Source: a virus
Lineage: Duplodnaviria; Caudoviricetes
Direction: 5' to 3' (one strand)
Virus record (IMG/VR): IMGVR_UViG_3300036790_000826
Location: 1-52,985 of that record
DNA: 52,985 bases
This document shows, one piece after another, positions 25,284 through 52,985 of the stretch (its first letter is position 1; each line of letters starts with the position of its first letter). The notes beneath the pieces are model-generated. The model searched no databases. It was not told the origin of the DNA and saw only the letters and a program-made list of their open reading frames with translations. The position numbers were made by a program, and so were the translations under genes.

Positions 25284-25287
25284 TCCG

Positions 25288-33959: not shown

Positions 33960-34790
33960 ATGTTCGACCAACCTGAAGACGCTCACCTTCCGCCGGCGCG
34001 GCCTGTCATTAGCTGGCCGGGCGGCAAGGGCCGCATGCTGAAGCATCTTCTGCCGCTCATCCCGGCCCACACCTGCTACGTCGAGCCGTTCTTTGGCGGC
34101 GGGGCGCTCTTCTTTGCGAAACCCCAGAGCCACCATGAGGTGATCAACGACATCAACAACGACCTGGTGTCGTTCATGCGGAATGCCCGGCTTCACCTGG
34201 ACGCTCTTCTCGACGAGACGGACCTGGTCCTCAACTCGCGCAAGGAATTTGAGGACTACCTGGAGCAGGCCGGCCTCACTGAGATCCAGCGCGCGGCCCG
34301 CTGGTTCCTCAGAAATCGCCTGAGCTTCGGCGGCATGGGTCGCACCTTCGCCGTGACGCGCACGCACTCGCTCACATCCAGGGCGCAGCGCATCATCGCG
34401 ATCCGCTCGCTTTCGCGTCGCCTGGATCGCACAACGGTCGAGAACCGGGACTGGGCGAAGATCGTCGACCTCTACGACTTCGACGAGGCGTTCTTCTTCT
34501 TCGATCCGCCCTACCTGGACGGCGCCGGCGCGGCCTACGAGGGCTGGAGCGAGCTGGAACTCACGCGCTTCTGTCAGCGGATCCAGAAGCTCAAGGGCGC
34601 CTGGCTCGTAACATTCCAAGACTGCGAGCAGGTCCGCGACCTCCTGCCCGGTTACACGACCAAGGCCGTCGTGCGCGCGAACGGCATCGGCAACAACGGC
34701 CGCGTCAGGAGCGGCCGCGTTTACCGCGAGGTCATCATTTCGAGCGCCCGCGCGGCGGCCGGCCGCCAGCGAAAGGGGATGAGCGCATGA
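33960..34790 (+). CDS. Dam-family (D12 class) DNA adenine methyltransferase
   Basis: WPGGK, YVEPFFGGGALFF, EVINDIN, ENRD and FFDPPY. Confidence 0.92.
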   Translation: MFDQPEDAHLPPARPVISWPGGKGRMLKHLLPLIPAHTCYVEPFFGGGALFFAKPQSHHEVINDINNDLVSFMRNARLHLDALLDETDLVLNSRKEFEDYLEQAGLTEIQRAARWFLRNRLSFGGMGRTFAVTRTHSLTSRAQRIIAIRSLSRRLDRTTVENRDWAKIVDLYDFDEAFFFFDPPYLDGAGAAYEGWSELELTRFCQRIQKLKGAWLVTFQDCEQVRDLLPGYTTKAVVRANGIGNNGRVRSGRVYREVIISSARAAAGRQRKGMSA

Positions 34791-36049
34791 TCTTCACGTC
34801 GCCCATGCCCTTCGGGGCCGCCGTGCAGCGCCTCGAGTCCAAGACACCGATCGCCGCGGATCTCTCGTCCGCCGAGTGGTCGCAGATGCAGCTCGGCATT
34901 CTTGACCGCTCCTTTTTCTCATCGCGGGTCAACGATATCCGGACCGTCGCCGAGATGCAGTCGCGTATCTCGGACGCGCTCACCCTCGTGCGCCGGGACG
35001 GGGGTGCATTCATGGACCGGAGCCGGTTCATCGCCGACATGCGCTCCTACCTGGGCGCCGCGTCTGGCGACAGCGGGGAAATCACCGACCTCACGAGCGC
35101 AGGCCGCCTTGGCCTCATCTACGACTTCAACGTCGAGGACGCCATGGAGTACGGTCGCTGGATGGCGCGCCAGGATCCCGACATCCTGGACGCCTTCCCC
35201 TGCAACGAGCTTGTGCGGATTGAACACCGCGAGGTTCCGCGCGGATACCGGCGCGGCGCCAAGGGGCGCCTCGTCGAGGTGCCGGACGAAAGCTGGCCCT
35301 CTCGGTGGGCCGCAGCCGGCGGGCAGTTTGTCGGCGGCCGCATGATCGCCGCGAAGGACGATCCGATATGGACGAAGATCTCGCGCTTCGGGCGCCCCTG
35401 GCCGCCGTTCGATTTCAATTCAGGGATGGGACTGGCGGACATCAGCCGCAAGGAGGCAGAGCAGCTCGGCGTCATAGATCCCGACGCTCCGGCGCCCAAG
35501 CCCCAGCACCTGGACTTCAACCACAACCTCCAGTCGTCAATACCCGATGCGACTCCCGAAGTGCTCTCGCAGCTGGAAAAGGTGTTCGGCGACCAAATCC
35601 AGGCAGACCGGGATGGCAAGGTCGTCTGGCAAGGCCAGCGCCTGGCCCGCCTCTATTCGGCCGCGCTTGCCGATTCCTCGGTCAAATGGTCGCTCAACCT
35701 GGGCGAGGCGACTCCTGAAGCGATCGCCGCGGCGAGCGACCTCGGCGTGGACCTTGAGGGAGCGAGCCTCGTCATCGAGGCCGACGAGATCCGGCATGCG
35801 GAAAATCGTCACGGCGCGGGCAATGAGAGCCGTTCGGACCAGCGCCCGCTGACGAGCCTCGACTTCCAGCTCGTCCCCCACGTCTGGCGGAATCCGGACA
35901 GCGTCGAGCTGGGGGACAAGGACGGGACGCTCGTCTTTTCAAAGTCGCTCCTGGGCGAAGCTGCCATTGTCACCTACGACCGCCAGGGCAAGTCGGGCAA
36001 GTGGGGTTTCCTCACGATGTACGTTAAAACGAAAGGAGGGACGCTGTGA
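34787..36049 (+). CDS. MuF-like head morphogenesis protein with C-terminal extension resembling a PBECR nuclease
   Basis: RL.LIYD.N, DPIW...PPFDFNSG MuF-like core; C-terminal IRHAENRHG...QRPLT..DF..VP.V..NPD. Confidence 0.7.
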   Translation: MIFTSPMPFGAAVQRLESKTPIAADLSSAEWSQMQLGILDRSFFSSRVNDIRTVAEMQSRISDALTLVRRDGGAFMDRSRFIADMRSYLGAASGDSGEITDLTSAGRLGLIYDFNVEDAMEYGRWMARQDPDILDAFPCNELVRIEHREVPRGYRRGAKGRLVEVPDESWPSRWAAAGGQFVGGRMIAAKDDPIWTKISRFGRPWPPFDFNSGMGLADISRKEAEQLGVIDPDAPAPKPQHLDFNHNLQSSIPDATPEVLSQLEKVFGDQIQADRDGKVVWQGQRLARLYSAALADSSVKWSLNLGEATPEAIAAASDLGVDLEGASLVIEADEIRHAENRHGAGNESRSDQRPLTSLDFQLVPHVWRNPDSVELGDKDGTLVFSKSLLGEAAIVTYDRQGKSGKWGFLTMYVKTKGGTL

Positions 36050-37311: not shown

Positions 37312-37854
37312 ATGAACCTCAAGCGCATCGTCACAGGCTCACAGTCCATCTTCTTCCCGGAGGGCGGAGCCTTCACCATACCGGCTGCTGGCATAGCCGG
37401 CGTCGCATCGAAGCCCGGCGCCACGGATCCGGCCTTCCTCGTCCTCGGCGCCATCAAGTGGTCGAAGAATCCGACCCACAAGACCGAGAACTACATGGAG
37501 GCCTCCCCGGGCTCCTACGTGGCGACGGACGAGATCGTCCTCAGCAAGGGCATCACTCTGAAGGGCAAGCTGGAGAAGCAGTCCAACTTCGCCGTCCAGC
37601 TGCAGCAGGCCTGCGCCGCGCTGCCCGTGTCCCCCGCGGCCGGCGGCGTCTTCAACCCGCTCTCCGGGCCGCCCGTCGTGCGCGGCTGGCTGCATGTCCA
37701 GGAGTACGACCAGAACGACACCCTGGTGAACACGGTGGACTACTGGGTCGCCATGAAGGCGAGCGGCGACACCAACAACGACGACAAGGCCACGGAGACG
37801 CCGATCGAGGCCGTGGTGCTCTTCTCGACGCTCAACGTCGGCACCCTGGCCTAA
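37312..37854 (+). CDS. Major tail tube protein (probable)
   Basis: 180 aa, beta-rich, strong codon bias, followed by a hairpin; no sheath gene present. Confidence 0.6.
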   Translation: MNLKRIVTGSQSIFFPEGGAFTIPAAGIAGVASKPGATDPAFLVLGAIKWSKNPTHKTENYMEASPGSYVATDEIVLSKGITLKGKLEKQSNFAVQLQQACAALPVSPAAGGVFNPLSGPPVVRGWLHVQEYDQNDTLVNTVDYWVAMKASGDTNNDDKATETPIEAVVLFSTLNVGTLA

Positions 37855-37873
37855 GCCAACCCAACGCTAGCAG

Positions 37874-37906
37874 CCGGAAGGGGCGACTTCGCCCAGCCCC
37901 TTCCGG
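37874..37906 (+). other. GC hairpin after the tail tube gene
   Basis: CCGGAAGGGG...CCCCTTCCGG inverted repeat; no T-tract. Confidence 0.5.
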
Positions 37907-37921
37907 CCGCTGCCATCACAC

Positions 37922-38353
37922 ATGAGTTTCACACGCACCACGACCGCTCCGGGCGTCATCGACGACATCTCGCCGGGCACGCCCACGGACGCAGCGCCGG
38001 GGCAAGTCGCCCCGGCAGCCCGCAGCAACACCGCGCCCGCCGACAGGACAGGCGCAGCCAGAACCGCGACGCCCCCCGTGTCCTTCGACATGCTGGACGG
38101 CACCGCCCAGCCCCTTCCCAACATGCCATCCGTATTCCAACCCGCATTCAACGGCCTCACCGGAGGCGGCAACAGCCTCTCCACCCTCACCGCAAGCGCA
38201 GCCGACATCGGCAAATTCATCCAGGGAAAGGACGGCGCCCAGATGAGGAGCTACGAAGTCTGCGCCGGCGCCGACGCGACGGCCGCTCCCGGCATCATTC
38301 GCCCGGCGAACTTCGACGCCGTCAACAACGCCGTCGTCTTCGTCGAGCGCTAG
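37922..38353 (+). CDS. Hypothetical tail-associated protein without signal peptide
   Basis: Pro/Thr-rich N-half, then GLTGGG...Y...AG.DA...PGIIRP motif; directly before the fibre-like gene. Confidence 0.6.
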   Translation: MSFTRTTTAPGVIDDISPGTPTDAAPGQVAPAARSNTAPADRTGAARTATPPVSFDMLDGTAQPLPNMPSVFQPAFNGLTGGGNSLSTLTASAADIGKFIQGKDGAQMRSYEVCAGADATAAPGIIRPANFDAVNNAVVFVER

Positions 38354-38380
38354 ACGCCCAACCCAATAGGAAATCCAACC

Positions 38381-40144
38381 ATGAATCGCTTCCTCCTTCT
38401 CTGCGCCCTCGCGGCCGCGGCCCTTGCGCCGGCGGCCCTGGCAACCAACACGGGCTCCGAGCCCTTCTATATATCGTCCGATGGGAACGACGTCGCCCTG
38501 GAGAACCTGGTCTTCGACAGCGGCACGTCGATCAGCGGCACCGGCACGTTCGATTTCAGCGCCGGCACGCTGATCATGTCGGCGAACACGAATATCCCGG
38601 CGCTCACCATCAGCGGCACGGCCGGCGCCGGCTTCCTGGATCTCACCTCGCAGTCGGCGGTTCCCGCATACCTCTCGGGCAGCATCCGGCTCTATTCCGA
38701 TGCGAGCAACAAGCTCGCCTGGATCGGAGCTACCGGATTCACGCGCAGCTTCGACGGGTCGATCACGGCGAACCGCGTCTATACGCTGCCTGACGTATCG
38801 GGCACCCTCATCACGAGCGGCAACCTTTCCAGCATCACGACCGTGGGGACCCTCACGTCCGGCGTCTGGAACGGCACGGCGATCGCGAATGCCTACCTGG
38901 CTAACTCCTCGGTCTCGATCGCGGGCAACTCGGTCGCCCTGGGCGCGTCCCTTTCGCTGGATACCCTGACGGGTGTCTCCACGAATGGATTCCTGGAGAG
39001 GACGGGCGCCAACGCGCTCACTTCCCTTGGGTCGACGGGCGCCGGCAGTGTGGTGCTTTCGACGTCCCCGACGTTGCTGACATCGCTCCTGGTTACGCAG
39101 ACCGGGTCCGGACCTTCTTCGGCCCAGCTGAGCGCCAGCGTCAACGCGCCCGCCGTCTCCTACACCTCGAACACGACGGGCGGCTTTCACTACGCCCAGG
39201 TGAATTCGAACGGGACACTTGTCTTGCAGATCTTCGACAGCGGCCTTGCAGCGATCTCCGCCAGCTCAACTGGGGGCCTCGCGGTCGGGGGCGGACTCAA
39301 CGTCTCAGGGACGACGGCCGCTACCAGCACGTCCTCGGGCGCGATCGTGGACGTCGGCGGCCTCGGGGTCGCGGGAGCCGTCTACGCGGGCTCCCTGAAC
39401 ACGACGACCATCGGGTCAATAAGCTCGGCCGTGCTTACCATCACAGGAGGGACTAGCAACTCCACCATCACGCTCAACGGCACGAGCACCTCTCCGGAGA
39501 ATAGCTACGCCGCGCCGTCCAGCGCCACGACCTCGCAGGTGGGTCATGCTTTTACCTTTGCAAGCACGTCGAGCGGCGGCGGCACGGCGGTCGGCGCGCG
39601 TATTGTCGACACGGTGAACCAGAGCGGCAGCTCTGGCTTCGTCGACCTGTTTATCAACCGAACGCAAACCGCGACGGGGTCGGCTGCGGAAGCCCTCGCT
39701 CAATTCAGCGTCGGGTCGACAGCCTGGTATACCTTCAACATAGGCAACGCGGCCACCACGGGGGACTTCAATGGATCCTCGGGCACGGCCGTGGCGGCCG
39801 ACTTCGAGCCCAACTTCTCTGGCGAGACTAGCTCGGCCGGATGGACGGCGCTAAAGGTCAATGCGACCGACGGCAGCGGAAGCGGAACGAAGACGCTCAT
39901 CCAGGGGCTCCTCGGCGGATCCTCGGTCTTCAGCGTCCTAAGCAACGGCAACCTCTCCGCGACCGGCACGGTCGGCTCGGGCGGAGCGGTCCTCGCCGCC
40001 ACGGCTCCGACTCACGGCGCCGGAACCTGGGGACTCGGCACCATCAGGACGGGGTCCGGCCTCGCCGTTTCCACCTCCAACGGTCTTGAGCTCTCCGTCG
40101 GAGGAGTCGTCTACGACGTCGCTCTCCTCACATCCACTCCATGA
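38381..40144 (+). CDS. Tail-fibre-like Gly/Ser/Thr-rich protein with predicted Sec signal peptide
   Basis: MNRFLLLCALAAAALAPAALA|TN; fibre-shaft-like motifs TANRVYTLPD, ITTVGTLTSGVWNGTAI, GSVVLSTSPTL and ATSTSSGAIV..GGLGVAG. Confidence 0.75.
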   Translation: MNRFLLLCALAAAALAPAALATNTGSEPFYISSDGNDVALENLVFDSGTSISGTGTFDFSAGTLIMSANTNIPALTISGTAGAGFLDLTSQSAVPAYLSGSIRLYSDASNKLAWIGATGFTRSFDGSITANRVYTLPDVSGTLITSGNLSSITTVGTLTSGVWNGTAIANAYLANSSVSIAGNSVALGASLSLDTLTGVSTNGFLERTGANALTSLGSTGAGSVVLSTSPTLLTSLLVTQTGSGPSSAQLSASVNAPAVSYTSNTTGGFHYAQVNSNGTLVLQIFDSGLAAISASSTGGLAVGGGLNVSGTTAATSTSSGAIVDVGGLGVAGAVYAGSLNTTTIGSISSAVLTITGGTSNSTITLNGTSTSPENSYAAPSSATTSQVGHAFTFASTSSGGGTAVGARIVDTVNQSGSSGFVDLFINRTQTATGSAAEALAQFSVGSTAWYTFNIGNAATTGDFNGSSGTAVAADFEPNFSGETSSAGWTALKVNATDGSGSGTKTLIQGLLGGSSVFSVLSNGNLSATGTVGSGGAVLAATAPTHGAGTWGLGTIRTGSGLAVSTSNGLELSVGGVVYDVALLTSTP

Positions 40145-40551
40145 AGGCTAAAATCACAATCCTCGCGATTGCCCTTGCGGCGGTCGCTTTCGCCCAGACG
40201 CTCACGCCCACCCCGACGCCAACCGCAACGCCGACCCCGGTGATCGTGCAGTCGCCGGAATATCCCTGGCGCCTGCAGGTGGACTTCACCTACGTGGACG
40301 GCGCGCTCACCGCCGCTCCGATCACGCAGTTCTACCAGAGCGACATCACCCAGGGCTCGGACGTCATCGCGCAGCCGCCCAGCGTGCCGCCCAGCCTCAC
40401 TGTGGACCTGGTGGCGAACGGCTCAAAGACGGTCACGATCGGCGGCACCACCTATACCTATGCGCAGGTGATTGCCATGATGACGGCGATCTTCGCCCAG
40501 GAAAGAGCCGCGCAGCTGGCCCCGACGCCCACTCCGACGCCGACGCCCTAG
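40141..40551 (+). CDS. Secreted protein with PT repeats at both ends
   Basis: MKAKITILAIALAAVAFA|QT; TPTPTP runs at the N- and C-termini; ATGA-coupled to the fibre-like gene. Confidence 0.75.
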   Translation: MKAKITILAIALAAVAFAQTLTPTPTPTATPTPVIVQSPEYPWRLQVDFTYVDGALTAAPITQFYQSDITQGSDVIAQPPSVPPSLTVDLVANGSKTVTIGGTTYTYAQVIAMMTAIFAQERAAQLAPTPTPTPTP

Positions 40552-40562
40552 CGGCCGATTCC

Positions 40563-41033
40563 ATGACGCGCCAGGACATCGAGAACCTGCTCACCGACAA
40601 GGAGAGCTCCCTCGGCCAGCAAGTTCCCTTGCTGGAGAACCTCGCGCGCTTTGGCGGCCTCATCTATGCCAAGCCCGAATGGGCCTGGATCGTGGGGCCG
40701 TTCCGCGAGCTCGTGAGGGCCCGGCTCTGGTCGGATGGCCTCGATACCTGGCTCGTCAAGTGGGAGTGCCGCGACTTCGCCAGGGCGTTCGCCTGCTACG
40801 CCCAGGAGTGCAACGCCCTGACGCCCGGCGCCCCCAAGGGCAGCGACGCCCTGGCCGTTGGCGAATTCTGGTTCATCCCGGATGCCTCGCGGGGTCTCGC
40901 TCCCGCAGGCACCGGGCACGCAATCAACATCTGCATCACCGAGAAAGGGGTGCAGTTCATCGACCCTCAAAACTTCACCGAATGGATACCATCCTTAGAC
41001 GAATTGGCTTCGTGCTTATTTCTGCGGTTCTGA
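40563..41033 (+). CDS. Papain/transglutaminase-like cysteine protease domain protein
   Basis: WECRDFA (Cys), GHAIN (His) and FIDPQ (acidic) triad pattern. Confidence 0.6.
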   Translation: MTRQDIENLLTDKESSLGQQVPLLENLARFGGLIYAKPEWAWIVGPFRELVRARLWSDGLDTWLVKWECRDFARAFACYAQECNALTPGAPKGSDALAVGEFWFIPDASRGLAPAGTGHAINICITEKGVQFIDPQNFTEWIPSLDELASCLFLRF

Positions 41034-41095
41034 TCGGCGCCAGCGGGTGCGCGACGACCTCCACGAAGCTGCCCCCCGTGCAGTACGCACCCTGA
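40982..41095 (+). CDS. Very small lipoprotein (37 aa)
   Basis: MDTILRRIGFVLISAVLIGASG-C lipobox; overlaps the 3' end of the protease gene. Confidence 0.45.
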   Translation: MDTILRRIGFVLISAVLIGASGCATTSTKLPPVQYAP

Positions 41096-41101
41096 TTTAC
41101 C

Positions 41102-41551
41102 ATGAAAACACTGAAGACATTCCTGGCCTCGGGCCTGCTCCTCGCCGCGGTCACCGTCCGCGCTGACAACATCAAGCTGAACTTCGTCCAGCAGACCGGC
41201 GTCCTCCAGGCCCTCCAGGGCCTCGATGGCACCGCGAGGCTCGACAAGGAGAACACCAAGGTCGTCGTCGGCTTCGACTTCGCCGGGTCGACGCGGATCG
41301 CGATCATGAAGGACATAACCGCCCTGCAGGCCGGCCTCCAGACGGTCCGAGAGGCCGAGGCCCATTACATGAAGGGCCACGGCATTGCCGAGGTGAAGAG
41401 CGCCACGCCTGAGCAGCTTGCCGCGATGGACGAGATCGCGAACACCCCGTCGGACGTGACTCTCATCAAGTTCTCGACCGACGACCTGCGTCTCGACTCG
41501 AACGCCATTCCGGGATCCGTCCTGGCGGCGTTGGCGCCCCTAATCAAGTAG
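41102..41551 (+). CDS. Secreted helical protein resembling fibre-associated accessory proteins
   Basis: MKTLKTFLASGLLLAAVTVRA|DN; C-terminal IPGSVLAALAPLI. Confidence 0.7.
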   Translation: MKTLKTFLASGLLLAAVTVRADNIKLNFVQQTGVLQALQGLDGTARLDKENTKVVVGFDFAGSTRIAIMKDITALQAGLQTVREAEAHYMKGHGIAEVKSATPEQLAAMDEIANTPSDVTLIKFSTDDLRLDSNAIPGSVLAALAPLIK

Positions 41552-41555
41552 CGCC

Positions 41556-41990
41556 ATGGACCCTCTCGCCGAAGTGCCGCCCCCTACGCTCCGTTTCAAG
41601 AACGGGCAAAGCGAGCTGATTCGCTGGACCGAGCTTGGCATCGCCGAGCGGCACGCGTTCACCAACCTCCTCGCCGAGGGCAGGACTCCCGAGATCGTGC
41701 TCCTCTGCACCAAGCGGAACGCCGCCTGGATGGAGAGCCTCGACTTCGATTCCTACCTGGAGCTCGCCAAATACTTCCTCAAGCGAAATTTTCGCTGGGC
41801 CCTCGCCATCGTGACGCACGATCCGGTGATGGGCCTGAAATGTGGGACGTTGATCCTGGCGATTCAGATATCATCCGGACTTTCGACGAGCTCTGCGCCT
41901 ACGCCCGCCGGTGCGTCGACCGATGGGAAGGAGACGCCTGGCGCGCCTGCGCCAGCGGCTTCTGCGCTGGAGACCAGTCAAAGGTCCTGA
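41556..41990 (+). CDS. Tail assembly chaperone (gpG-like)
   Basis: Position just before the TMP, with an overlapping -1 frame ORF. Confidence 0.55.
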   Translation: MDPLAEVPPPTLRFKNGQSELIRWTELGIAERHAFTNLLAEGRTPEIVLLCTKRNAAWMESLDFDSYLELAKYFLKRNFRWALAIVTHDPVMGLKCGTLILAIQISSGLSTSSAPTPAGASTDGKETPGAPAPAASALETSQRS

Positions 41991-42157
41991 CCCACAGCCC
42001 CAAGGACATCCAACGGTACATCTTCGAGCGAGACCGCTACCATGCACGGCGCCAGCTGGAGCTCATGGAAAGCTGCCTCCTCGGGATGGTCGGCGGAGAC
42101 GACTACAACGCGGCCGCGACAAAGCTAATCGAGATCATCGATGCCGAGCCTGGTTGA
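41786..42157 (+). CDS. gpGT-like -1 frameshift extension
   Basis: The -1 frame is open from heptamer A AAT TTT (41786-41792) to 42157. Confidence 0.5.
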   Translation, partial: KFSLGPRHRDARSGDGPEMWDVDPGDSDIIRTFDELCAYARRCVDRWEGDAWRACASGFCAGDQSKVLTHSPKDIQRYIFERDRYHARRQLELMESCLLGMVGGDDYNAAATKLIEIIDAEPG

Positions 42158-45100
42158 ACTCATCATCAGCGCCGTGGGGGCCGAAGAGGCCGGCGCGGCC
42201 GTGCAGGGCATTTCGGCCAAGGTTAAGGAGCTGGCATCCTCCCTCAGCGGCGGCGGCCTAAAGAGCACGACCGACTTCTCCGAGAAGCTGGAGGACGTGT
42301 CTGGGGTGATGCGCGACATGGTGTCGCCCGCGCTCTCGGACACGACGAAGCAGCTCCTCGGCCTGGCTGCCGCGTCGCTCTCGGTGGGCGCGGTATATAA
42401 TTCCGTTAAGGACCAGATCAGCCAGGGATCCGACTTCGTCCAGCTCTCTCGCCGGACGGGGGAGAGCGTCAGGGACCTGGTCATCCTGCGCCAGGCGTTC
42501 ACGAATGCCGGGCTCGGCGCCGAATATGTGGGAACGGCCGCGAACCTCCTGGACCGGGTCCTCAGCGGCACGACAGCGAGCGGAAGGCGCACCTCCGAGG
42601 TCTTCGAAGAGCTGCATCTGTCAATCGACAAGATGCGGACCCTCACCTTCACGCAGCAGCTGCAGGAGCTCGGGTCCGCGTTCGCCCGGCTTCCCGACCA
42701 GGCTGCGCGAAGCGGCGCAGCGATGACGCTCTTCGGCCGCTACGCCGGCGGCCAGATGCTGCAGCTCCTGGCCGACACGGATGCCTTCCGCCGGGCCGAG
42801 GCGCAGGCGGGGAGCTATGCGGACCGGATGGCTCGGGACGCGGGTGTTTTCAACGACGTCGCGCTTCGGTTCAACGCCATCAAGGTGAACATCCAGGAGA
42901 TGGCGGCGGCGGCGGCCGAGCAGCTCGTCCCGGCGCTCGATAGCGTGGCAAAGGTCGCCGGAGGAATTAACCTTGCCGGCTTGGGCAGCTTCGCCGGCGC
43001 GGCGGCTCCTGGCATCCTGGGGACCGTCGCCCTCACGATCGCTACAGACCAGGCAGACATGAAGATGGTCCAGCTGGCGGAGCGTTTCGGTCAGAACGTC
43101 GAAGGTAGCCTGCTCGGAGGTGTTATGGGCGCCGCGAGCAAGGTCACCGGGCTGCTCGCGACGGCGCTGCCCTTCGGATTAGCAGCGGTAATCGGCGCCG
43201 AGATCGTGAAGGGGATCCTGATGGCGGACTGGCAGAACACCATGGACAAGATCGACGCCGCCGGCTCGGGCGCCGACACCCTGACGAAGAAGGCCCGGGA
43301 CATCCGGACCGACGACGACCGGCAGGCCGTCCTTGCCATGGCCCAGAAGGAGCTGGCCTCGCAGGTCCAGGCGCAGGCGGACGCTACTAAGGTACCCATG
43401 TTCAGCGGACCCGGTGTGGTGCCTGGAATGGACCCACGCGCGACTGCTGGCGAAGGAAACAGCCTGCTCGCCGACAGCTACGGGGCGACGATCTCGCAGT
43501 TGAAGACGCTCATCAACGAGCTCGCCAGTCCGAAATGGGCGAAGATGACCGAGGAGCAGAACCAGGCTACCGACGCCCTTGCAAAATTCCGCACCGGAAT
43601 TGATGCGGCCGCCACCAGCTTGCCGCAGCTCAGAGAGAAAAACGATCAGCTGCAGGAAAAGGATATGTCACCCACTGACAGGGTGGCGGACCTCACTGCC
43701 CAGCGCACGCAGTTGTACTATCAAAGGGCCGCGCCGCCGCAAAAGGGCGCCAGTGCCGACGAAATCGCGACGGTCGATCAGCAGACCGACAACAAGATCC
43801 TCGACCTAACCCACCAGATCCAGGAGGCGGAAAAGCAGGTCACCGAGGAGAAGAAAAAGCAGGCGGAACTGGATGCTCACCGGCAGATATACGCTCTCCA
43901 AACAAACATGGAGAGGGCGAAGGCCGCCGGGGACCTGGAAGGCGCGCAGGCCCTCAAGGAGCAGATCGACGCGATCCGCAACAGCGTGGAGCTGCAGGGA
44001 GAGGACCTGACATTAGCGAAGCAACGGGCCGCGGCTGAGCATCAGGTATTTGAAGAGCAGCAAGCTCAGATTGCGCAGCGGAAGGCTGCTGAAGCGGCGC
44101 GTCAGGCACTGGAGGTCCAACGCACGGCCCTCGAAAATGAACTCGAAGCTATCCGTAGTCGGCTTGCTCTTTTGGACTCCGACACGAGCAAGACAGAAGC
44201 CCAAAAATGGGCCGACCGAAAGGCTGCGATCGCTGAGGAAATTAAGGATGTGGAGGCGACCATCCAAGCCGAGCAGCTCCTCGCTCAGGCGGCCGCTGCG
44301 AAGGGCGATCAAGTGGCGGCGAACCAGTACTCGGCCGAGGCCGCTAAGAACGGCGAAAAGCTCAGCGGGTTGCAGCATGAGAACGTTCAGCTGGGTCCCG
44401 ACCCGAACAACTGGGTAAAGCAGACCCAGAAATCCATGAACGACCTGCTAAAGTCGCTGGGAACGACCTCGCAGCAGATTGCCCAGTCGATCACGAGCAC
44501 GATCGGGAACGCCTTCAATTCGATCCGGGAGAACATCGTCAGGGCCATCACGGTGACTGGCGACTGGAAGCGGGCGATCAGCCAGATCGGCCTCAGCATC
44601 GAGCAGTCCCTCGTGGGCGCGTTCGTCAACATGGCGGTCCAGTGGGCGGAGAAGCTCGTCATCATGAAGGTGGAGTGGCTCGCGATGCGCCTCGGGATGG
44701 CGGCGGCGGACAAGGGTGTCGCCGCATCGAGCACGGCGGCCCTGGTGCCCCTCGCCCTGGCGACGTCGGCCATCTGGGCGGCGCCGGCGGCCCTGGCCAC
44801 GATCGCGACCTTCGGCGGCGCGGCGGCCGCGGCGCCCATGGAGATCGCGGCCTCGATGGCTGCCAGCCAGGGCCTGGCGCTCGCCTCCTCGGGCGGTTTC
44901 TTTCCCGGAGATCCCACGAAGGCCCGCGGCATCTTCCACGGCGACGAGTTTGTCCTTTCGGCGCCGGCGGTCCGCAACCTGGGCGGCGGGGCGGCCGTGA
45001 CGGCCCTCCACCAGGCGGCGCTGCAGGGCCCGGCCCAGGCCGCCGCGGCTAAGGCCATGACGGGGGGCGGCCGCACGCCGAACATTCACACGTATATCGA

Positions 45101-45188
45101 CAAGGCTGTCTTCATGCGCGCCATCGCGCCGGACGTTGAGGCGATCGCGCACACCGTCTCCATGAAGAACATTCGGCAAAACGCCTGA
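42141..45188 (+). CDS. Tail tape measure protein (1015 aa)
   Basis: Long helical Ala-rich protein with LSRRTG.S...L..L.QAF motif; between the chaperone and tail-tip genes. Confidence 0.9.
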   Translation: MPSLVELIISAVGAEEAGAAVQGISAKVKELASSLSGGGLKSTTDFSEKLEDVSGVMRDMVSPALSDTTKQLLGLAAASLSVGAVYNSVKDQISQGSDFVQLSRRTGESVRDLVILRQAFTNAGLGAEYVGTAANLLDRVLSGTTASGRRTSEVFEELHLSIDKMRTLTFTQQLQELGSAFARLPDQAARSGAAMTLFGRYAGGQMLQLLADTDAFRRAEAQAGSYADRMARDAGVFNDVALRFNAIKVNIQEMAAAAAEQLVPALDSVAKVAGGINLAGLGSFAGAAAPGILGTVALTIATDQADMKMVQLAERFGQNVEGSLLGGVMGAASKVTGLLATALPFGLAAVIGAEIVKGILMADWQNTMDKIDAAGSGADTLTKKARDIRTDDDRQAVLAMAQKELASQVQAQADATKVPMFSGPGVVPGMDPRATAGEGNSLLADSYGATISQLKTLINELASPKWAKMTEEQNQATDALAKFRTGIDAAATSLPQLREKNDQLQEKDMSPTDRVADLTAQRTQLYYQRAAPPQKGASADEIATVDQQTDNKILDLTHQIQEAEKQVTEEKKKQAELDAHRQIYALQTNMERAKAAGDLEGAQALKEQIDAIRNSVELQGEDLTLAKQRAAAEHQVFEEQQAQIAQRKAAEAARQALEVQRTALENELEAIRSRLALLDSDTSKTEAQKWADRKAAIAEEIKDVEATIQAEQLLAQAAAAKGDQVAANQYSAEAAKNGEKLSGLQHENVQLGPDPNNWVKQTQKSMNDLLKSLGTTSQQIAQSITSTIGNAFNSIRENIVRAITVTGDWKRAISQIGLSIEQSLVGAFVNMAVQWAEKLVIMKVEWLAMRLGMAAADKGVAASSTAALVPLALATSAIWAAPAALATIATFGGAAAAAPMEIAASMAASQGLALASSGGFFPGDPTKARGIFHGDEFVLSAPAVRNLGGGAAVTALHQAALQGPAQAAAAKAMTGGGRTPNIHTYIDKAVFMRAIAPDVEAIAHTVSMKNIRQNA

Positions 45189-47722: not shown

Positions 47723-47904
47723 GCGAGCCCAACAATACGCAGCCGGTCAGCCTTCTGCCCTTCCAGCAGGAGAACGTCGCCTCGAACCAGCAAAACGTCC
47801 CGATCCCGTACCTCGGGGGAGAGCGCCTCATGGCCCTTAAGTGGATCCAGCCGGCCCTCGGTGAAATGACCCAGCAGGCCACGGGCTCTGGGAAAAAAGG
47901 CTAA
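47719..47904 (+). CDS. Small tail-tip assembly protein (61 aa)
   Basis: ASNQQNVPIPYLGGE motif; coupled on both sides; ends GSGKKG. Confidence 0.6.
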   Translation: MSEPNNTQPVSLLPFQQENVASNQQNVPIPYLGGERLMALKWIQPALGEMTQQATGSGKKG

Positions 47905-50900
47905 TGGGCAGCAGCAGCAAAAGCGGGTCCGCCCAGCAGAGCCTCAACTACTACGGCACGATCGCGGGCGCCTTCTGCTGGGGGCCGTTGCAGTGGCTGA
48001 CGGCCGTCGTCTGCAACGGGAACTACGTCTGGCAGTGCTCGCCGTCCGGTCCCCTCGATTTGACGGCTTCAGGGGCTCTGGAGGCCGGCGGCTACGTGGA
48101 CCTGACGGGCGGCATCCTGGATCCCACGCTTATCGCCTCGGGCGGCTTTCTGCATCTCTACGCCGGCTTCCCCAACCAGGGCGCGAGTGCGGCCCTGACC
48201 GGCGATGCCTACCAGGACACCGTTGTCCTGGTCGGCAAGGACATCTTCTTCGGGGAGGATTCGGGCACCGCGCCCAACTTCCAGATCATCGGCGGCCGCT
48301 GCCCGCAGGTGGACACCTCGATCGTCGCGGCCCTGGACAACATCGTCGTCGACCGACAGGTCAATCCGATCGCCTGCCTGGCTGAATTCTTCCTCGATGA
48401 GCGAGGCAAGGGAATGCTGCTCTCCCAGCTGGACCCCGCGAGCTGGCAGGCCTCCGCCCACTGGTGCGCCCAGGACGCCGCTCACCAGGCATTCACATTC
48501 ATCTCGCCCCTCATCACGGAGCAGAGCGCCTTGCGCGACGTCCGCAAGGCCCTCCTGGATCCCATCTCGGGCTACACGCGCTGGCTGCCGAACGGCACGC
48601 TGGGGTGTTTCATTTACGAGTGGGGCACCAATCCCGGCGGCCTCGTGACGGTTGACGCCAGGCACTTCACAAAGGAGCTGAAGGGTGACCTGGCTGACTG
48701 GGTGTCCGTCCCGACAGGCATCGTGGCCTCGTTCACGGACCGGGCCTACGAGTTCCAGACAAACACGGTGCTGGTCCCCAACGAACGGGCGACCCAGATC
48801 CGCGGCGTCGCGGATCCCAGCCAGATCGACCGCCAGCACGTCACAAAGCAGCCCCAGGCGCAGGCTCAGGCCATGGAATACATGAGGCGCCTGTCGATGG
48901 GCCCGGGGACCGCCACGGGTGTTATTCGGGGCTCGCTGATCCCTGGCGTCGTGCCGGGCTCAAAGATCCTCATCAACGTCGACCCGCAGACAGGGGGCGG
49001 CGGCCTGGCGCAGCTGGCCCGGATCGACGGCATGAAGATCGATCGCTCCGACGACGTGGAGCTGGACATCACCTACGACCCGCTGCTCCCCGCGGTAGCC
49101 TATACGCCCGACTGGCCCTCCCCGCTGCCGGAGACGACCTTCCATGCCTCGTCGGCGCCCACGCTGGTCTACCGGCTCGCGATTCCGCTGCCGCCTGGAG
49201 CATTCGACTGGCCCCCGGCGGTGGGCTTCCTGGCGACGAGGCCCTCGATGACGGTGACGGGTTTCAGCGTCTATTTCTCCCAGACGTCGGGAGGCGCCTT
49301 TGCCGAGCTGGGCTCGCAGCTCGGTTTCGCTGTCCGGGCCTCACTGATCACGGCCGTGGGGACCGGCGACGCGACGATGGAGCTGCAGATGCTGGACGGC
49401 GCGAACGGTCCGGACGCCTATCTCGCCGCCAACACCCCCGGCGGCAACACGACGGCCGCCGAAAACAACACCCTCCTGGCGATCCTGGTACAGCTCGACG
49501 GCTCGGGCAGGGTCGCCCTGGACGGAAGCGGCAACCCGATCATGGAGATGGCCTCCATCGTCCAGCGGTCCGCCGTCACGGCCGACACCCACAACTACAC
49601 GGTCCTGCGCGGCCGCTGTGGCCTAGCTGCGCGGGCCTGGGGAGCAGCGACCGCTGCCTGGATAGTCCCGATCGCGAATCTGACGCCCTGGAGGCATTTG
49701 CTCTTCGCAGCCCTGGAAGGGGCGCCTGCGTATTTCAGGCTGCAGGCATTCACTTCCGCCGCCGTCGACGAGACGATCCCGTTGCCCGAGGCCGACGTCG
49801 TGTTCCCGACCCTTGCGCCGCCCACGGCGCTCACAGCCATCACCCCGGGGGGACAGCTGGTAACGCTTGCCTGGGCAGACAGCGTCAACCTGGACGACGG
49901 CCTTGACGAGTATGTCGTCTACCGGGCAACGGCAGGCGCCGGCGGCCCCTTTACCGAGATCGGCCGCACCAGGTCGACGGCCTTCCACGATACCGGGCAG
50001 ACAGGTGGCCTCGTGATAGGCACGCAGTACTGGTACGCCGTCACTGCCCTGGACCTTTCGGACGACGAAAGCGTCCAGTCGAACATCGTCACGGCCACGC
50101 CGACCGGGGTCGCAGCCAACCAGACCCCTCCGCAGAACGCCGGAGCAGCATCGGAGGCGGACGGGGGACATACCATCGTCGCCAGCGACGGGAGCGTCTC
50201 GGCGTCGCTGGACATCCTGGTCCCGGCTCTCCCGGGCGCCGGCGCCGGAACACTGGCCGCCGCCTGGCAAAACCTCCTTTTCAGACGCAACGGGGTTTCG
50301 AGCCAATGGCAGATCGGATCCGGGAATCTTAACAATACCGGCACCGTGACGGTTTCCTTGGACCTCCTGTCCCCCGGCGTGGCCTATGACGTCGCACTGC
50401 AGGCATTCACGAGCTTCGGCATCCCCTCGGCGATAGTAGTCGCGACCAGCTCACCTTTCACAGCGCCCAGCAAGGGCACCTCGGCGCCAGCGCCGGGCGC
50501 CATTAGTTCGCGGGTGCCGACGACGGGCGACGCTGTTCCGCCGGCATTTGAGGGTAGTCAGCTGGTTCCAGCCACGATCATCACGTTTGCCGGCGTCACC
50601 TCGGACAGGAGCCTCATCGGCTACGAATACTACCTGGGTGAGCTGTCTGGGCCGCCAACCACCGGACAGGCCATCAACCCGGTCAATGTCGTTCCAGCCA
50701 CCCCGGACGGAGGCACGGTCGAGATCCCCGTTTATGGGCAGCCTTCGCTTCTCAGCTTGGCTGGATGGGTGCGTACAATCGACAGCACTGGCAACACGAG
50801 CACCTGGACGGGTACGGGCGGCGCCATGGCCTGGACGTTCGGCTACGCGGGCAACATGGGCGCCCAGGATTCAGACGGGGTCGAGGTCAGCGCAGTCCAA

Positions 50901-51209
50901 ACGGGTGCGGCAGGGGCCAGCTCCGTGCGTCAGATCCTCGCCAGTTGCCCCGTCGACATGGTCTACGTCACGACTGGAGGTCATCCGACCGAGACGTTCA
51001 ACGTCGACATCAGCAACCGGGGATTCACCACCGCGCCGGACAACTGCCAGATCACCCCCACGTCGCCGACCCTCGGGAACTCCTGGTATTACGACAAGAG
51101 CTCCTCCACCTCGACGACCGCTGTGATCGTCATGCAAGGCTTCAACGGCGCCAACATCGGCGTCGCCCAGGACTACGGCATCAGCTTCCTCTTCACCGAA
51201 TACGACTAA
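47904..51209 (+). CDS. Central tail tip/host-specificity protein with an FN3-like domain
   Basis: YYGTIA...C.GP, VNPIACL and VLRGRCG patterns; VTLAW...YVVYRA...YWYAVTALD..DES FN3 signature. Confidence 0.8.
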   Translation: MGSSSKSGSAQQSLNYYGTIAGAFCWGPLQWLTAVVCNGNYVWQCSPSGPLDLTASGALEAGGYVDLTGGILDPTLIASGGFLHLYAGFPNQGASAALTGDAYQDTVVLVGKDIFFGEDSGTAPNFQIIGGRCPQVDTSIVAALDNIVVDRQVNPIACLAEFFLDERGKGMLLSQLDPASWQASAHWCAQDAAHQAFTFISPLITEQSALRDVRKALLDPISGYTRWLPNGTLGCFIYEWGTNPGGLVTVDARHFTKELKGDLADWVSVPTGIVASFTDRAYEFQTNTVLVPNERATQIRGVADPSQIDRQHVTKQPQAQAQAMEYMRRLSMGPGTATGVIRGSLIPGVVPGSKILINVDPQTGGGGLAQLARIDGMKIDRSDDVELDITYDPLLPAVAYTPDWPSPLPETTFHASSAPTLVYRLAIPLPPGAFDWPPAVGFLATRPSMTVTGFSVYFSQTSGGAFAELGSQLGFAVRASLITAVGTGDATMELQMLDGANGPDAYLAANTPGGNTTAAENNTLLAILVQLDGSGRVALDGSGNPIMEMASIVQRSAVTADTHNYTVLRGRCGLAARAWGAATAAWIVPIANLTPWRHLLFAALEGAPAYFRLQAFTSAAVDETIPLPEADVVFPTLAPPTALTAITPGGQLVTLAWADSVNLDDGLDEYVVYRATAGAGGPFTEIGRTRSTAFHDTGQTGGLVIGTQYWYAVTALDLSDDESVQSNIVTATPTGVAANQTPPQNAGAASEADGGHTIVASDGSVSASLDILVPALPGAGAGTLAAAWQNLLFRRNGVSSQWQIGSGNLNNTGTVTVSLDLLSPGVAYDVALQAFTSFGIPSAIVVATSSPFTAPSKGTSAPAPGAISSRVPTTGDAVPPAFEGSQLVPATIITFAGVTSDRSLIGYEYYLGELSGPPTTGQAINPVNVVPATPDGGTVEIPVYGQPSLLSLAGWVRTIDSTGNTSTWTGTGGAMAWTFGYAGNMGAQDSDGVEVSAVQTGAAGASSVRQILASCPVDMVYVTTGGHPTETFNVDISNRGFTTAPDNCQITPTSPTLGNSWYYDKSSSTSTTAVIVMQGFNGANIGVAQDYGISFLFTEYD

Positions 51210-51851: not shown

Positions 51852-51925
51852 TGGACGCCGAGGGATTCGAACCCCCGACCCCCTCGGTGTAAACGAGGTG
51901 CTCTAACCAACTGAGCTAGGCGTCC
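51852..51925 (-). tRNA. trnV: tRNA-Val(TAC)
   Basis: GGACGCC acceptor stem, TAGCTCAGTTGGTTAGAGC D arm, CCTCG-TTTACAC-CGAGG anticodon arm and GGTTCGAATCC T arm; followed by TCA rather than CCA. Confidence 0.96.
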
Positions 51926-51935
51926 GAAATCTGGC

Positions 51936-52985
51936 CTATACGGCGGCCAGCGCGCGCCGCGGCCGCAGGAGACCGTCGCGGGCCATCAGCTCCGCCACCT
52001 GGACGGCGTTGAGCGCCGCCCCCTTCCAAAGGTTGTCGCCGCTCACCCAGAACGCGAGGCCGTTGGGAAGCGCCGTGTCGACGCGGATCCTGCCGACGCC
52101 GCACTTCACCTTCGCGCTGAAGTCGAGGGGTGTCGGGTACGCGCCCGTGGACGGCTCGTCGACGAGCTGCGCGCCCGGGAACGAGGCGACGGCCTGCCTC
52201 GCCTCCTCAACGCTGACCGGACGCTCGAACTCCGCATTGACCGCCACGGAATGAGCCCGGACCACGGGGACCCGGACGCAGGTCGCGGAGACCGGAAGGT
52301 TGGGCAGGCCCAGGATCTTGCGGGCCTCCAGCATCATCTTCGTCTCCTCGCCCGTGTAGCCGTTTGCCCCGAAGGAGTCGACCTGGGGAATCACGTTGAG
52401 GGCGATCTGGTGCGGGAAGACCTTCTTCTGGAGCGGCGCGTGCCCCACGTGCGCCGCCAGCTGCGCCTCAAGCTCGCGCTCCCCTTCCGTGCCGGCGCCG
52501 GTGACCGACTGGTAGGTCGCCATGATGAGGCGCTTCAGTCCAAAGCGCCGGTGCAGCGGCCAGACGCCCATGAGGGCCACCGCCGTCGAGCAGTTCGGGT
52601 TGGCGATGATGCCCTTGTGGGTCCCAAGCGCCTCGGGATTGATCTCGGGGATGACGAGCGGCACGGACGGGTCCATGCGCATGGCCGAGCTCTTGTCGAT
52701 GACGAGGCAGCCGGCCTTGACGGCGTCCGGGGCGAGCGCGCGGGTTACCGGGCCGCCGGCCGCGAAGAACGCCACGTCAATCCCGGCGAAGACTCCCGCC
52801 TTTGCCTCCTCGACCGCCACCTTCTCGCCCCTGAAATCAACCGTCTTGCCCACCGACCTGGCCGACGCGAAGGGCCTGAGCGACGAGATCGGGAAGCCGC
52901 GCGCCTCGAGCAGGCGCAGCAGCTCTTGACCGACGGCGCCCGTGGCGCCGACGATGCCGACCGTGAAGGATGCTGTCTTGTCCAT
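51936..52985 (-). CDS. asd: Aspartate-semialdehyde dehydrogenase
   Basis: GATGAVG, IIANPNCST, TYQSVTGAG, ATCVRVPV..AHS and DNLWKGAALNAVQ. Confidence 0.97.
   Translation of the reverse strand: MDKTASFTVGIVGATGAVGQELLRLLEARGFPISSLRPFASARSVGKTVDFRGEKVAVEEAKAGVFAGIDVAFFAAGGPVTRALAPDAVKAGCLVIDKSSAMRMDPSVPLVIPEINPEALGTHKGIIANPNCSTAVALMGVWPLHRRFGLKRLIMATYQSVTGAGTEGERELEAQLAAHVGHAPLQKKVFPHQIALNVIPQVDSFGANGYTGEETKMMLEARKILGLPNLPVSATCVRVPVVRAHSVAVNAEFERPVSVEEARQAVASFPGAQLVDEPSTGAYPTPLDFSAKVKCGVGRIRVDTALPNGLAFWVSGDNLWKGAALNAVQVAELMARDGLLRPRRALAAV

What the first reader, a model, noticed from the sequence alone, without database searches (positions are those of the whole stretch)
37922..41551. Tail-fibre-like module whose proteins carry Sec signal peptides: possible exported or periplasm-assembled virion appendage
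Seen: between the tail tube and tail chaperone genes lie a signal-less small protein, a 587-aa protein with fibre-shaft-like motifs and a textbook signal peptide (ALA|T), a PT-repeat protein (AFA|Q), a cysteine-protease-like ORF, a 37-aa lipoprotein and a helical accessory protein (VRA|D). All are tightly packed in the late operon with phage-like codon usage. Known: tailed-phage structural proteins normally fold and assemble in the cytoplasm without signal peptides. Inference: the fibre and its accessory proteins are exported, possibly glycosylated on the Ser/Thr/PT tracts, and joined to virions at lysis through the cytoplasmic 37922-38353 adaptor. Alternatively they form a phage-encoded surface adhesin or receptor-blocking decoy. 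This is my best candidate for an undescribed system here.
Basis: partly seen in the sequence, partly recalled or inferred. Interest (0 to 1): 0.85.

Follow-up and report, generated by a model that had tools for sequence, protein, structure and literature searches.

The report
Signal-peptide tail-fibre module in prophage
Inside the tail genes of a Mu-like prophage from a soil Opitutaceae bacterium sit a tail-fibre-like protein and two helper proteins that all carry secretion signals, and the same pairing recurs in other phages, which suggests that some phages fold or use a fibre outside the cytoplasm.

Summary
Six tightly packed ORFs lie at 37922-41551, between the presumed tube gene and the frameshifted tail chaperone. 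Four have Sec or lipoprotein-type N-termini, against 0 of 16 other late proteins.

The block is two units, not one system.

(1) Fibre unit: w143 (no signal), w587 (tail-fibre homologue), w136 and w149. It is conserved in the one close relative, L081, and the signals are kept there. w149 belongs to an unannotated phage family of over 1000 representatives. Of the top 150, 92 carry a ~24-residue signal-like extension and 57 carry none. Signal presence on the w149-like gene matched that on the neighbouring fibre gene in 11 of 11 loci, 7 with and 4 without.

(2) w156, a MOA/PSL-type papain-fold enzyme, plus a conserved mini-lipoprotein, w37. This pair is absent from L081. In several other phages it sits next to holin-like and lipoprotein genes.

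Export of the fibre unit is well supported. Whether the fibre ends up on virions is inference (about 0.45). A non-virion envelope role is the main rival. No SignalP, proteomics or expression data were available.

The parts
37312..37854 (+). presumed major tail (tube) gene, the upstream flank of the module
   Evidence: It is 180 aa with no Pfam or PHROG hit. It is 72% identical to L081 10001-10543, which holds the same position. It has the highest GC3 of the late genes.
37866..37913 (+). strong RNA hairpin in the 67-nt gap after the tube gene
   Evidence: Folding energy is -34.6 kcal/mol, z -5.8. L081 has a hairpin of different sequence in its own 67-nt gap, -39.3 kcal/mol, z -4.8. There is no U-tract, and the terminator scan did not list it.
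37922..38353 (+). w143: signal-less protein with a Pro/Ala/Thr-rich N-terminal part and a conserved C-terminal domain of about 85 aa
   Evidence: It was not flagged as signal-bearing. It is 47-49% identical to L081 10611-11384, whose N-terminal part is expanded by 11-aa repeats. The family has 6 members, none with a signal.
38381..40144 (+). w587: tail-fibre homologue with a Sec-type signal (residues 1-21, 38381-38443), a conserved N-domain (to about residue 145), a fibre motif (about 150-203), a Ser/Thr/Gly/Ala-rich shaft and a conserved C-terminal motif
   Evidence: Signal. Residues 1-144 are 48% identical to P0002 (= L081 11395-13815), which also has a signal. The C-terminal ~110 aa are 33% identical to P0003, and the motif is shared with L088 and L096 fibres. 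The fibre motif occurs in 79 viral loci. S+T+G+A+N make up 62%, and the only Cys lies in the signal. There is no Pfam, PHROG or PDB sequence hit.
40141..40551 (+). w136: small exported protein (signal residues 1-18) whose core domain is flanked by PT repeats
   Evidence: Signal. The mature part is 72% identical to L081 14301-14666, which has its own divergent signal. A weak signal-less relative lies at L090 4785-5135 (30% identity, E 0.01, syntenic). GTG codons 34 and 36 could give a signal-less form.
40563..41033 (+). w156: signal-less enzyme-like protein with a papain fold of the MOA/PSL type
   Evidence: In the family of 19 aligned sequences, WECRDF (Cys69), His119 and P135/Q136 are invariant. 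The model has pLDDT 85. Foldseek best hits are PSL 3phz (E 3e-5, TMq 0.68) and the MOA-E-64 complex 5mu9. Atlas neighbours are mostly viral clusters. L081 has no homologue.
40982..41095 (+). w37: mini-lipoprotein (lipobox ASG|C, Cys23; mature peptide 15 aa, CATTSTKLPPVQYAP)
   Evidence: Small lipobox ORFs of 31-39 aa with the motif P-P-V-(Q/E)-(Y/L) follow or overlap the 3' end of every full-length w156-like gene seen: L088, L089/L091/L092, L093 and L094/L095. BLAST E-values are 5e-5 to 1e-3.
41102..41551 (+). w149: exported member (signal residues 1-21) of a large uncharacterised phage family that sits next to fibre genes
   Evidence: Signal. The family has 1028 representatives at E<=1e-3. 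Of the top 150, 92 have a signal-like extension, 57 have none and 1 is ambiguous. The model has pLDDT 92.8, with the fold starting at residue 21. No solved fold matches. Only uncharacterised phage proteins match in BFVD.
41556..42157 (+). tail assembly chaperone G/GT with a -1 frameshift, the downstream flank
   Evidence: The -1 frame is open from 41552. An in-frame A AAT TTT heptamer lies at 41786-41792. L081 has the same arrangement with A AAT TTC. The next gene, 42141-45188, is the tape measure (phrog_24).

Best explanation
The region holds a Sec-exported fibre unit belonging to a Mu-like siphophage of an Opitutaceae host.

Proposed mechanism:
1. w587 is a tail-fibre homologue whose usual N-terminal start has been replaced by a cleavable signal peptide followed by a lineage-conserved N-domain.
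2. It is sent to the periplasm together with two small partner proteins, w136 and w149, which carry their own signals. Their relatives sit next to fibre genes in other phages.
3. The fibre folds outside the cytoplasm with these partners.
4. Late in infection the holin opens the inner membrane while the outer membrane still holds. Tails from the cytoplasm then meet the periplasmic fibres.
5. The fibre is captured through its conserved N-domain, possibly by the signal-less w143 encoded just upstream. It thus becomes a side fibre added to a virion that already has a central tip protein (47904-51209).

w156 and w37 are a separate, mobile pair: a MOA-type cysteine peptidase fold and a mini outer-membrane lipoprotein. 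In other phages this pair travels with holin-like and lipoprotein genes, so it more likely serves lysis or envelope remodelling.

Status of each step:
- Shown: the genes, their signal-type N-termini, conservation, co-variation, and the fold of w156.
- Inferred: actual export and cleavage, partner binding, capture at lysis, and the role of w143.
For: Export:
- Signal-type N-termini occur on 4 of 6 module ORFs against 0 of 16 other late ORFs (p 0.002).
- The L081 orthologues of w587, w136 and w149 all keep a signal, although the signal sequences differ.
- Alternative starts would truncate conserved domains of w587 and w149.
- The w149 model is disordered over residues 1-20 and folded from residue 21.

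One functional unit:
- In 11 of 11 loci the w149-like gene and the neighbouring fibre-type gene either both have a hydrophobic signal-type N-terminus or both lack it. Seven loci have it (window, L081, L088, L096, L097, L103, L044) and four lack it (L090, L098, L100, L104). Fisher p is 0.003, or 0.029 after collapsing related loci.
- The family splits cleanly into a form with a ~24-residue extension (92 of 150) and a form without one (57 of 150).

Virion role:
- The module lies inside the tail operon in both related prophages, and its composition matches the flanks.
- No promoter or terminator signal exceeds chance.
- w587 has a conserved N-domain (48% identity) and a divergent remainder, as in attached fibres.
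- In L097 the signal-bearing proteins follow a baseplate wedge gene and a signal-less 233-aa protein that matches only the N-terminal part of tail-fibre families. This is the canonical fibre slot.
- The signal-bearing 1243-aa protein of L044 matches tail-fibre phrog_5668 at E 3e-22.
- The signal-less w149-like genes sit beside ordinary large fibre genes.

Separate pair:
- w156 and w37 are absent from L081.
- They are followed by a membrane protein and lipoproteins in L088, L093 and L094.
Against: - I know of no tailed phage shown to export a virion fibre. Four literature searches found none, but subscription journals are not covered.
- Signals were judged with a home-made rule, not SignalP. 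Cleavage is unverified.
- Nothing shows that the fibre is in virions.
- The phage has a 1101-aa tip protein that could suffice for infection.
- The w143 adaptor idea rests only on gene order and on similar conservation levels.
- Only one close relative carries the whole unit.
- The co-variation set is small, and some loci are related to each other.
- L044's accessory protein is a weak family hit (E 8.5e-6).
- The long hydrophobic stretch at the start of L096's fibre may be a membrane anchor rather than a cleaved signal.
- The mature exported proteins have no cysteine, so disulfide formation cannot be the reason for export. No benefit of export has been shown.
Confidence: 0.45

Rival explanations
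1. The fibre unit is exported but never joins virions. It acts at the envelope of the infected or lysogenic cell. It could be a surface or periplasmic adhesin like the Bdellovibrio MAT fibres. It could instead bind or mask the phage receptor or a polysaccharide in transit, giving superinfection exclusion or protecting progeny from debris. w136 and w149 would be its folding partners.
For: - The evidence for export and co-export is the same as above.
- There is a precedent for Sec-exported tail-fibre-like trimers with a conserved ~130-aa domain directly after the signal (PMC10769870, passages read).
- The virion already has a tip protein.
- Recalled from knowledge: exported receptor blockers are encoded beside receptor-binding genes (T5 llp, T1 cor), and outer-membrane morons occur in tail operons (lambda lom).
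Against: - The unit shows no moron traits. Its composition matches the flanks, no promoter or terminator exceeds chance, and it is conserved in place in the relative.
- In L097, L103, L096, L088 and L044 the signal-bearing protein is the main or only large fibre-type gene seen in the fibre slot.
- Signal-less family members accompany ordinary fibres.
- A periplasmic protein has no evident route across the outer membrane.
- w587 has no sequence match to the solved MAT fragments at E<=1.
Confidence: 0.33
2. Part or all of the block is a lysis cassette. w156 would be the endolysin, w37 the outer-membrane spanin and w149 the inner-membrane spanin.
For: - w37 is a small Pro-containing lipoprotein whose gene overlaps a neighbour. 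It has a faint PHROG hit to Rz-like spanin (E 0.22).
- w156-like plus mini-lipoprotein genes are followed by a holin-like membrane protein and lipoproteins in L088, L093 and L094.
- A distant w156 relative in L090 has its own lipobox.
- w149 has an N-terminal hydrophobic segment.
Against: - w149 is a compact alpha/beta domain, not a coiled coil. 57 of 150 family members have no hydrophobic N-terminus. Its gene tracks fibre genes.
- L104 has a w149-like gene beside a separate, canonical set of GH108-type lysin, membrane protein and overlapping lipoprotein genes. I read these from the sequence; the family names are recalled.
- w156 matches the MOA/PSL protease domain and not NlpC/P60 or CHAP lysins. 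PlyC is only rank 16, at E 0.5.
- The phage has another candidate lysin, an RlpA-like DPBB protein with a hydrophobic N-terminus at 15348-16133(-). It also has membrane and lipoprotein genes upstream of the terminase.
- Mature w37 is only 15 residues.
Confidence: 0.1
3. The hydrophobic N-termini are not used as signals. They could be wrong starts, or helices that bundle the fibre parts together, and this would be an ordinary cytoplasmic side fibre with chaperones.
For: - No experimental or SignalP test was made.
- w136 has GTG codons at 34 and 36.
- Co-variation could also arise if the N-terminal helices pack against each other.
Against: - The segments have the full signal layout: a basic start, 10-15 uncharged hydrophobic residues and small residues at -3/-1, directly before the folded domain. 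In the family the median extension is 24 residues.
- A segment of this kind would be taken by the Sec pathway in any case (established knowledge).
- w587 and w149 have no usable downstream start.
- The gaps to upstream genes are short.
Confidence: 0.08

Closest known systems
Bdellovibrio bacteriovorus MAT (mosaic adhesive trimer) fibres (PMC10769870; passages read)
   Same: Both are tail-fibre-like proteins with an N-terminal signal peptide, a family-conserved domain of about 130 aa right after the signal, a fibre body and a variable tip.
   Different: MAT genes are chromosomal genes of a predator, and many end in an S74 chaperone-protease domain. w587 is encoded inside a phage tail operon, has no Pfam S74 hit, and comes with separate signal-bearing partner genes. 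No sequence link was found to the solved MAT fragments. The MAT N-domain could not be compared, because supplements are closed and no sequence was at hand.
Tail fibre plus downstream assembly-chaperone pairs of tailed phages (lambda Stf/Tfa, Mu S/U, T4 gp37/gp38; recalled)
   Same: A fibre gene is followed by small partner genes. The fibre has a conserved proximal part and a variable distal part. The position is in or next to the tail genes.
   Different: The known pairs are cytoplasmic and have no signals. w149 and w136 match no known chaperone family, and w149 has no solved structural relative.
Signal-bearing accessory genes in phage tail regions (lambda lom, HK97 gp15, T5 llp, T1 cor; recalled)
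   Same: These are exported or membrane proteins encoded among or next to tail and receptor-binding genes. w37 in particular resembles them in being a small lipoprotein.
   Different: They are single genes unrelated to fibres, often with their own expression signals. Here the exported protein is itself a fibre homologue with co-exported partners, conserved in place, and with no composition shift.
Papain-like C-terminal domain of the fungal lectins MOA and PSL (PDB 5mu9, 2iho, 3phz)
   Same: w156 shares the fold (Foldseek probability 1.0, TMq 0.52-0.68). Its Cys and His are invariant in the family.
   Different: w156 is a stand-alone phage protein of about 140-156 aa with no lectin domain. Pfam Agglutinin_C was not hit at E<=1. 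Its substrate is unknown.
Two-component spanins Rz/Rz1
   Same: w37 is a small Pro-containing lipoprotein whose gene overlaps its neighbour.
   Different: The overlapped neighbour is a soluble enzyme-like protein, not a membrane-anchored coiled coil. Mature w37 is 15 aa. w149 does not look like an inner-membrane spanin.

Membership tests
Virion tail fibre of tailed phages | Sequence relationship to known fibre proteins | tested here: met
   Residues ~150-203 of w587 match large fibre-type ORFs in 79 viral loci. The relatives P0004 and P0007 have typical fibre N-termini. w587 itself has no PHROG or Pfam hit.
Virion tail fibre of tailed phages | Cytoplasmic protein with an N-terminal virion-attachment domain and no secretion signal | tested here: not met
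   w587 starts with a signal-type segment. So do its relatives P0002 and P0003.
Virion tail fibre of tailed phages | Present in purified virions; trimeric fibre | not testable with these tools
   There are no proteomics data. The one complex job gave no verdict.
Bdellovibrio MAT fibres | [quoted passage not shown] | tested here: inconclusive
   The layout is met. Residues 1-144 of w587 are 48% identical to P0002, signal included. Homology to the MAT N-domain could not be tested.
Bdellovibrio MAT fibres | C-terminal S74 chaperone-protease, or one of the described alternative tips | tested here: not met
   w587 has no Pfam hit at E<=1 and no PDB sequence hit at E<=1.
Moron (independently expressed lysogenic-conversion gene) | Own promoter and terminator, deviating composition, patchy presence among relatives | tested here: not met
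   For the fibre unit, promoter-like sites number 1 against 0.7 expected and terminator-like sites 4 against 3.1 expected. Composition is within the flank range. The unit is present in place in L081. For w156 and w37, patchy presence is met, since they are absent from L081. The promoter scan uses a sigma-70 consensus that may not fit this host.
Two-component spanin (Rz/Rz1) | Outer-membrane lipoprotein gene paired with a gene for an N-terminally anchored, largely coiled-coil periplasmic protein | tested here: not met
   The w37 lipobox is met. But its partner gene w156 has no membrane segment. w149 is a globular alpha/beta protein whose family is 38% signal-less.
MOA/PSL-type papain-like cysteine peptidase domain | Fold match and conserved catalytic Cys and His | tested here: met
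   Foldseek hits are 3phz E 3e-5, 5mu9 E 2e-4 and 2iho E 5e-4. Cys69 and His119 are invariant in 19 sequences. Catalysis itself is not testable here.
Tail-fibre assembly chaperone (Tfa-type) | Homology to known chaperone families; binding to the fibre tip | tested here: inconclusive
   w149 has no Pfam or PHROG match. 2 of 60 family members hit phrog_1401, of unknown function. Only gene adjacency speaks for the role.
Mu-like transposable siphophage (context) | Mu-type portal, protease I, Gam, GemA, a MuB-like ATPase next to a transposase-sized gene | tested here: met
   Portal_Mu E 9e-39 and Mu-like_Pro E 6e-13. AAA_22/TniB ATPase. Phage_Mu_Gam E 1e-24 and GemA E 2e-7. The 738-aa neighbour has no Pfam hit.

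The most novel reading that the evidence does not exclude
A widespread but unrecognised way of building tailed-phage particles. The distal fibre and its assembly partners are exported by Sec and fold in the periplasm. They are added to cytoplasm-built tails only after the holin breaches the inner membrane. The w149 family would be the marker of this route, since about 60% of its top members carry signals.
Probability: 0.4. Interest if true: 0.9.

Novelty: new variant of a known kind. Interest (0 to 1): 0.7.

Why it matters
Textbook assembly of tailed phages takes place entirely in the cytoplasm. If fibres and their helpers are routinely exported in a sizeable set of phages, three things follow:
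- Virion completion would be coupled to lysis.
- Fibre folding would depend on the periplasmic environment.
- Receptor-binding proteins could meet envelope components before release.

This would affect how host range is predicted from genomes, how fibres are produced for engineering, and how signal-bearing 'hypothetical' genes in tail regions are annotated.

Even if the fibre never joins the virion, a phage-encoded, exported fibre homologue with dedicated co-exported partners would be a new kind of phage tool acting on the host envelope.

The work also defines three unannotated families:
- the w149 family, with over 1000 representatives;
- the w156 cysteine-peptidase fold with its obligatory mini-lipoprotein;
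- the w143 family.

Tried and rejected
- tblastn against 50,697 phage records found nothing for w587, w156 or w149, nor for two other w149-family members.
- Single-protein scans of viral contigs gave one relative for the tube and none for w156.
- The genome-contig scan returned only the window's own MAG contig.
- Two scans of 401 Verrucomicrobiota genomes each (400 sampled plus the host's own) found no real relative of w136. The 2 weak hits cover only the signal/PT part. They found no w149-like gene outside the host genome itself.
- The host genome has no second copy of w587.
- Complex prediction of the w587 C-terminal 188 residues (3 copies) with mature w149 gave no verdict, score 0.00. This is not evidence either way.
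- Fold searches for w149 found only generic helical matches: Foldseek PDB best E 0.18, and VIA-align wide best Z 5.5. The profile against PDB sequences gave nothing meaningful.
- Pfam and PHROGs scans of 60 w149-family members gave 2 hits to an unnamed PHROG.
- Cluster look-up of 10 family members returned only 'hypothetical protein' names.
- No RNA holder was listed among the sequencing runs.
- A tube-w143 frameshift fusion was considered and dropped. The gap holds a hairpin, and w143 has its own ATG.
- The reading 'w156 is the endolysin because no other lysin exists' was dropped after the DPBB protein turned up.
- Alignments A5, A9 and A10 were too diverse for locus scans. Smaller alignments were used instead.
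- Four literature searches found no report of a signal-bearing virion fibre in tailed phages. A fifth, on Verrucomicrobia prophages, was not informative. The phiCbK paper (passages) was irrelevant.

Full report
**Context**

The window is a complete IMG/VR provirus record. Its DNA is identical to a contig of an Opitutaceae MAG (L082).

It is a Mu-like siphophage:
- a MuB-like AAA ATPase next to a 738-aa transposase-sized gene on the minus strand;
- Mu Gam and GemA;
- a terminase nuclease domain, Mu portal and Mu protease I;
- a major head protein, phrog_1005;
- a Dam methylase, and a Mu F-like protein with a PBECR3 nuclease domain;
- a 180-aa presumed tube gene with no family hit;
- after the block under study, a chaperone with a -1 frameshift site, a tape measure, a BR0599-type hub, an NlpC/P60 protein and a 1101-aa tail protein.

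**Observation**

Four have signal-type N-termini, and none of 16 other late proteins does (p 0.002). I had no SignalP. The rule I used is simple and the cleavage sites are read by eye.

GC, GC3 and codon choice of the block match the flanks. No promoter-like or terminator-like site exceeds chance.

**Relatives**

One close relative was found, L081, whose tube is 72% identical. Between tube and chaperone it carries:
- a w143 homologue (47-49%, with an N-terminal part expanded by repeats);
- an 806-aa fibre (P0002) whose first 148 residues, signal included, are 48% identical to w587;
- a w149 homologue (26%);
- a w136 homologue (72% over the mature part).

All three of the latter have their own divergent signal peptides. 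L081 has no w156 or w37. So four genes form a conserved core, and two are an insertion.

**The fibre**

w587 has no Pfam, PHROG or PDB sequence hit. Its residues ~150-203 match large fibre-type ORFs in 79 viral loci. Its C-terminal motif, W-x-L-G ... V-G-G-x-x-Y, is shared with P0003 and with signal-bearing fibres in L088 and L096.

Among 64 fibre-motif ORFs with a complete 5' end, 8 have a signal-like start, one of them doubtful. Signal-bearing fibre homologues are therefore a recurrent minority.

The mature protein has no cysteine.

**The w149 family**

A profile search found 1028 representatives at E<=1e-3. Aligned to the profile, 92 of the top 150 have an N-terminal extension (median 24 residues) with an uncharged hydrophobic core. 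57 have none, and 1 is ambiguous.

The model is confident (pLDDT 92.8). It is unstructured over residues 1-20 and forms an alpha/beta domain from residue 21.

There is no solved relative. BFVD returns only uncharacterised phage proteins. No Pfam family matches, and 2 of 60 members hit a PHROG of unknown function.

**Co-variation**

In every locus I could read, the w149-like gene lies just downstream of a large fibre-type gene, or within three genes of it.
- Both carry a signal-type N-terminus in the window, L081, L088, L096, L097, L103 and L044.
- Both lack it in L090, L098 (close to L099), L100 (identical to L101) and L104.

No locus was discordant. Hydrophobicity separates the groups cleanly, at >=2.36 against <=1.59.

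Fisher p is 0.003, or 0.029 if related loci are collapsed to 4 against 4.

Two caveats apply. L044's accessory is a weak family hit, and L096's fibre may have an uncleaved anchor.

In L090 the weak w136 relative is also signal-less.

This is the strongest argument that the signals are used and that fibre and partners work in one compartment.

**Virion or not**

For a virion role:
- In L097 the signal-bearing proteins follow a baseplate wedge gene (phrog_6) and a signal-less 233-aa protein that matches only the N-terminal part of tail-fibre families. This mirrors the order w143 then w587 in the window.
- L044's signal-bearing protein matches a tail-fibre PHROG.
- The conserved N-domain and variable remainder of w587 fit an attached fibre.

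Against a virion role:
- There is no precedent. None was found in four literature searches.
- There are no proteomics data.
- The phage has a tip protein of its own.

The closest described case of exported fibre-like proteins is the MAT family of Bdellovibrio (passages only). Its supplementary table of members could not be seen.

I put the lysis-coupled side-fibre reading at about 0.45 and a non-virion envelope role at about 0.33.

**The w156/w37 pair**

w156 belongs to a family with invariant Cys and His. Its Atlas neighbours are mostly viral clusters. It folds like the papain-type domain of PSL and MOA.

A lipobox ORF of 31-39 aa with a P-P-V-(Q/E)-(Y/L) motif follows or overlaps the 3' end of each full-length w156-like gene. 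w37 is therefore a real gene.

In L088, L093 and L094 the pair is followed by a small membrane protein and a lipoprotein. The window has similar genes at 24400-26320, upstream of the terminase.

A lysis or envelope role is plausible but unproven. The phage also has an RlpA-like DPBB protein with a hydrophobic N-terminus.

**Verdict**

The export reading is supported, and the virion-joining step remains inference. The block is two units. It is a new variant of known kinds, with a bold reading that is still open.

Noticed in passing
window 37866-37913; L081 10549-10586: A very stable hairpin sits in a 67-nt gap right after the tube gene in both phages. The two sequences differ but the place is the same (-34.6 and -39.3 kcal/mol; z -5.8 and -4.8). 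It may be an attenuator or an mRNA stabiliser that sets the ratio of tube to downstream products.
   Followed up: partly
window 15348-16133 (-): This ORF has an RlpA-like DPBB 'lytic transglycolase' domain (E 4e-15) preceded by a hydrophobic segment. It lies in the early-strand region between Mu Gam and GemA. It is a candidate membrane-tethered lysin in an unusual position.
   Followed up: partly
window 24400-26320 (+): Upstream of the terminase lies a run of envelope-type genes: a 99-aa protein with two hydrophobic stretches and an acidic tail, a 195-aa lipoprotein, a 64-aa amphipathic protein, a 143-aa lipoprotein (related to L094 1718-2056, E 4e-11), and a 137-aa protein with one membrane segment and a coiled coil. 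This is the likely lysis region.
   Followed up: partly
window 34787-36049 (+) and 33960-34790 (+): A 420-aa protein with a Mu F-like N-terminal part (my reading, no hit) carries a PBECR3 nuclease-type domain at its C-terminus (E 8e-9). A D12 Dam methylase gene sits directly upstream, among the head genes.
   Followed up: no
window 1-13500 and 51852-52985: The left 13.5 kb has lower GC (0.51-0.61) than the prophage (about 0.65). It may be host DNA or another element. On the right, a tRNA-Val (51852-51925, minus strand) and a gene that reads like aspartate-semialdehyde dehydrogenase mark host DNA.
   Followed up: no
L013/L014, L043, L044, L053, L060/L061: Other viral contigs encode fibre-motif proteins of 452-2092 aa that start with signal-type segments. 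The phenomenon is therefore not confined to this phage lineage.
   Followed up: partly
L097 6278-7906 and L103 ~6430-7924: Two phages with very different GC (0.50 and 0.65) share a signal-bearing fibre with the same C-terminal ending (..AAGNPTKWI.I.DNGTTR.IPA.). Each is followed by a signal-bearing w149-like gene.
   Followed up: partly
L081 10611-11384: The w143 homologue carries about a dozen tandem 11-residue repeats of the TAPGETNPAAL type, which the window's copy lacks. The length of this linker varies among the six family members.
   Followed up: no
L090 5830-6387: A distant w156 relative (23% identity) has its own lipoprotein signal and no mini-lipoprotein gene after it. This hints that the enzyme acts outside the cytoplasm.
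   Followed up: no
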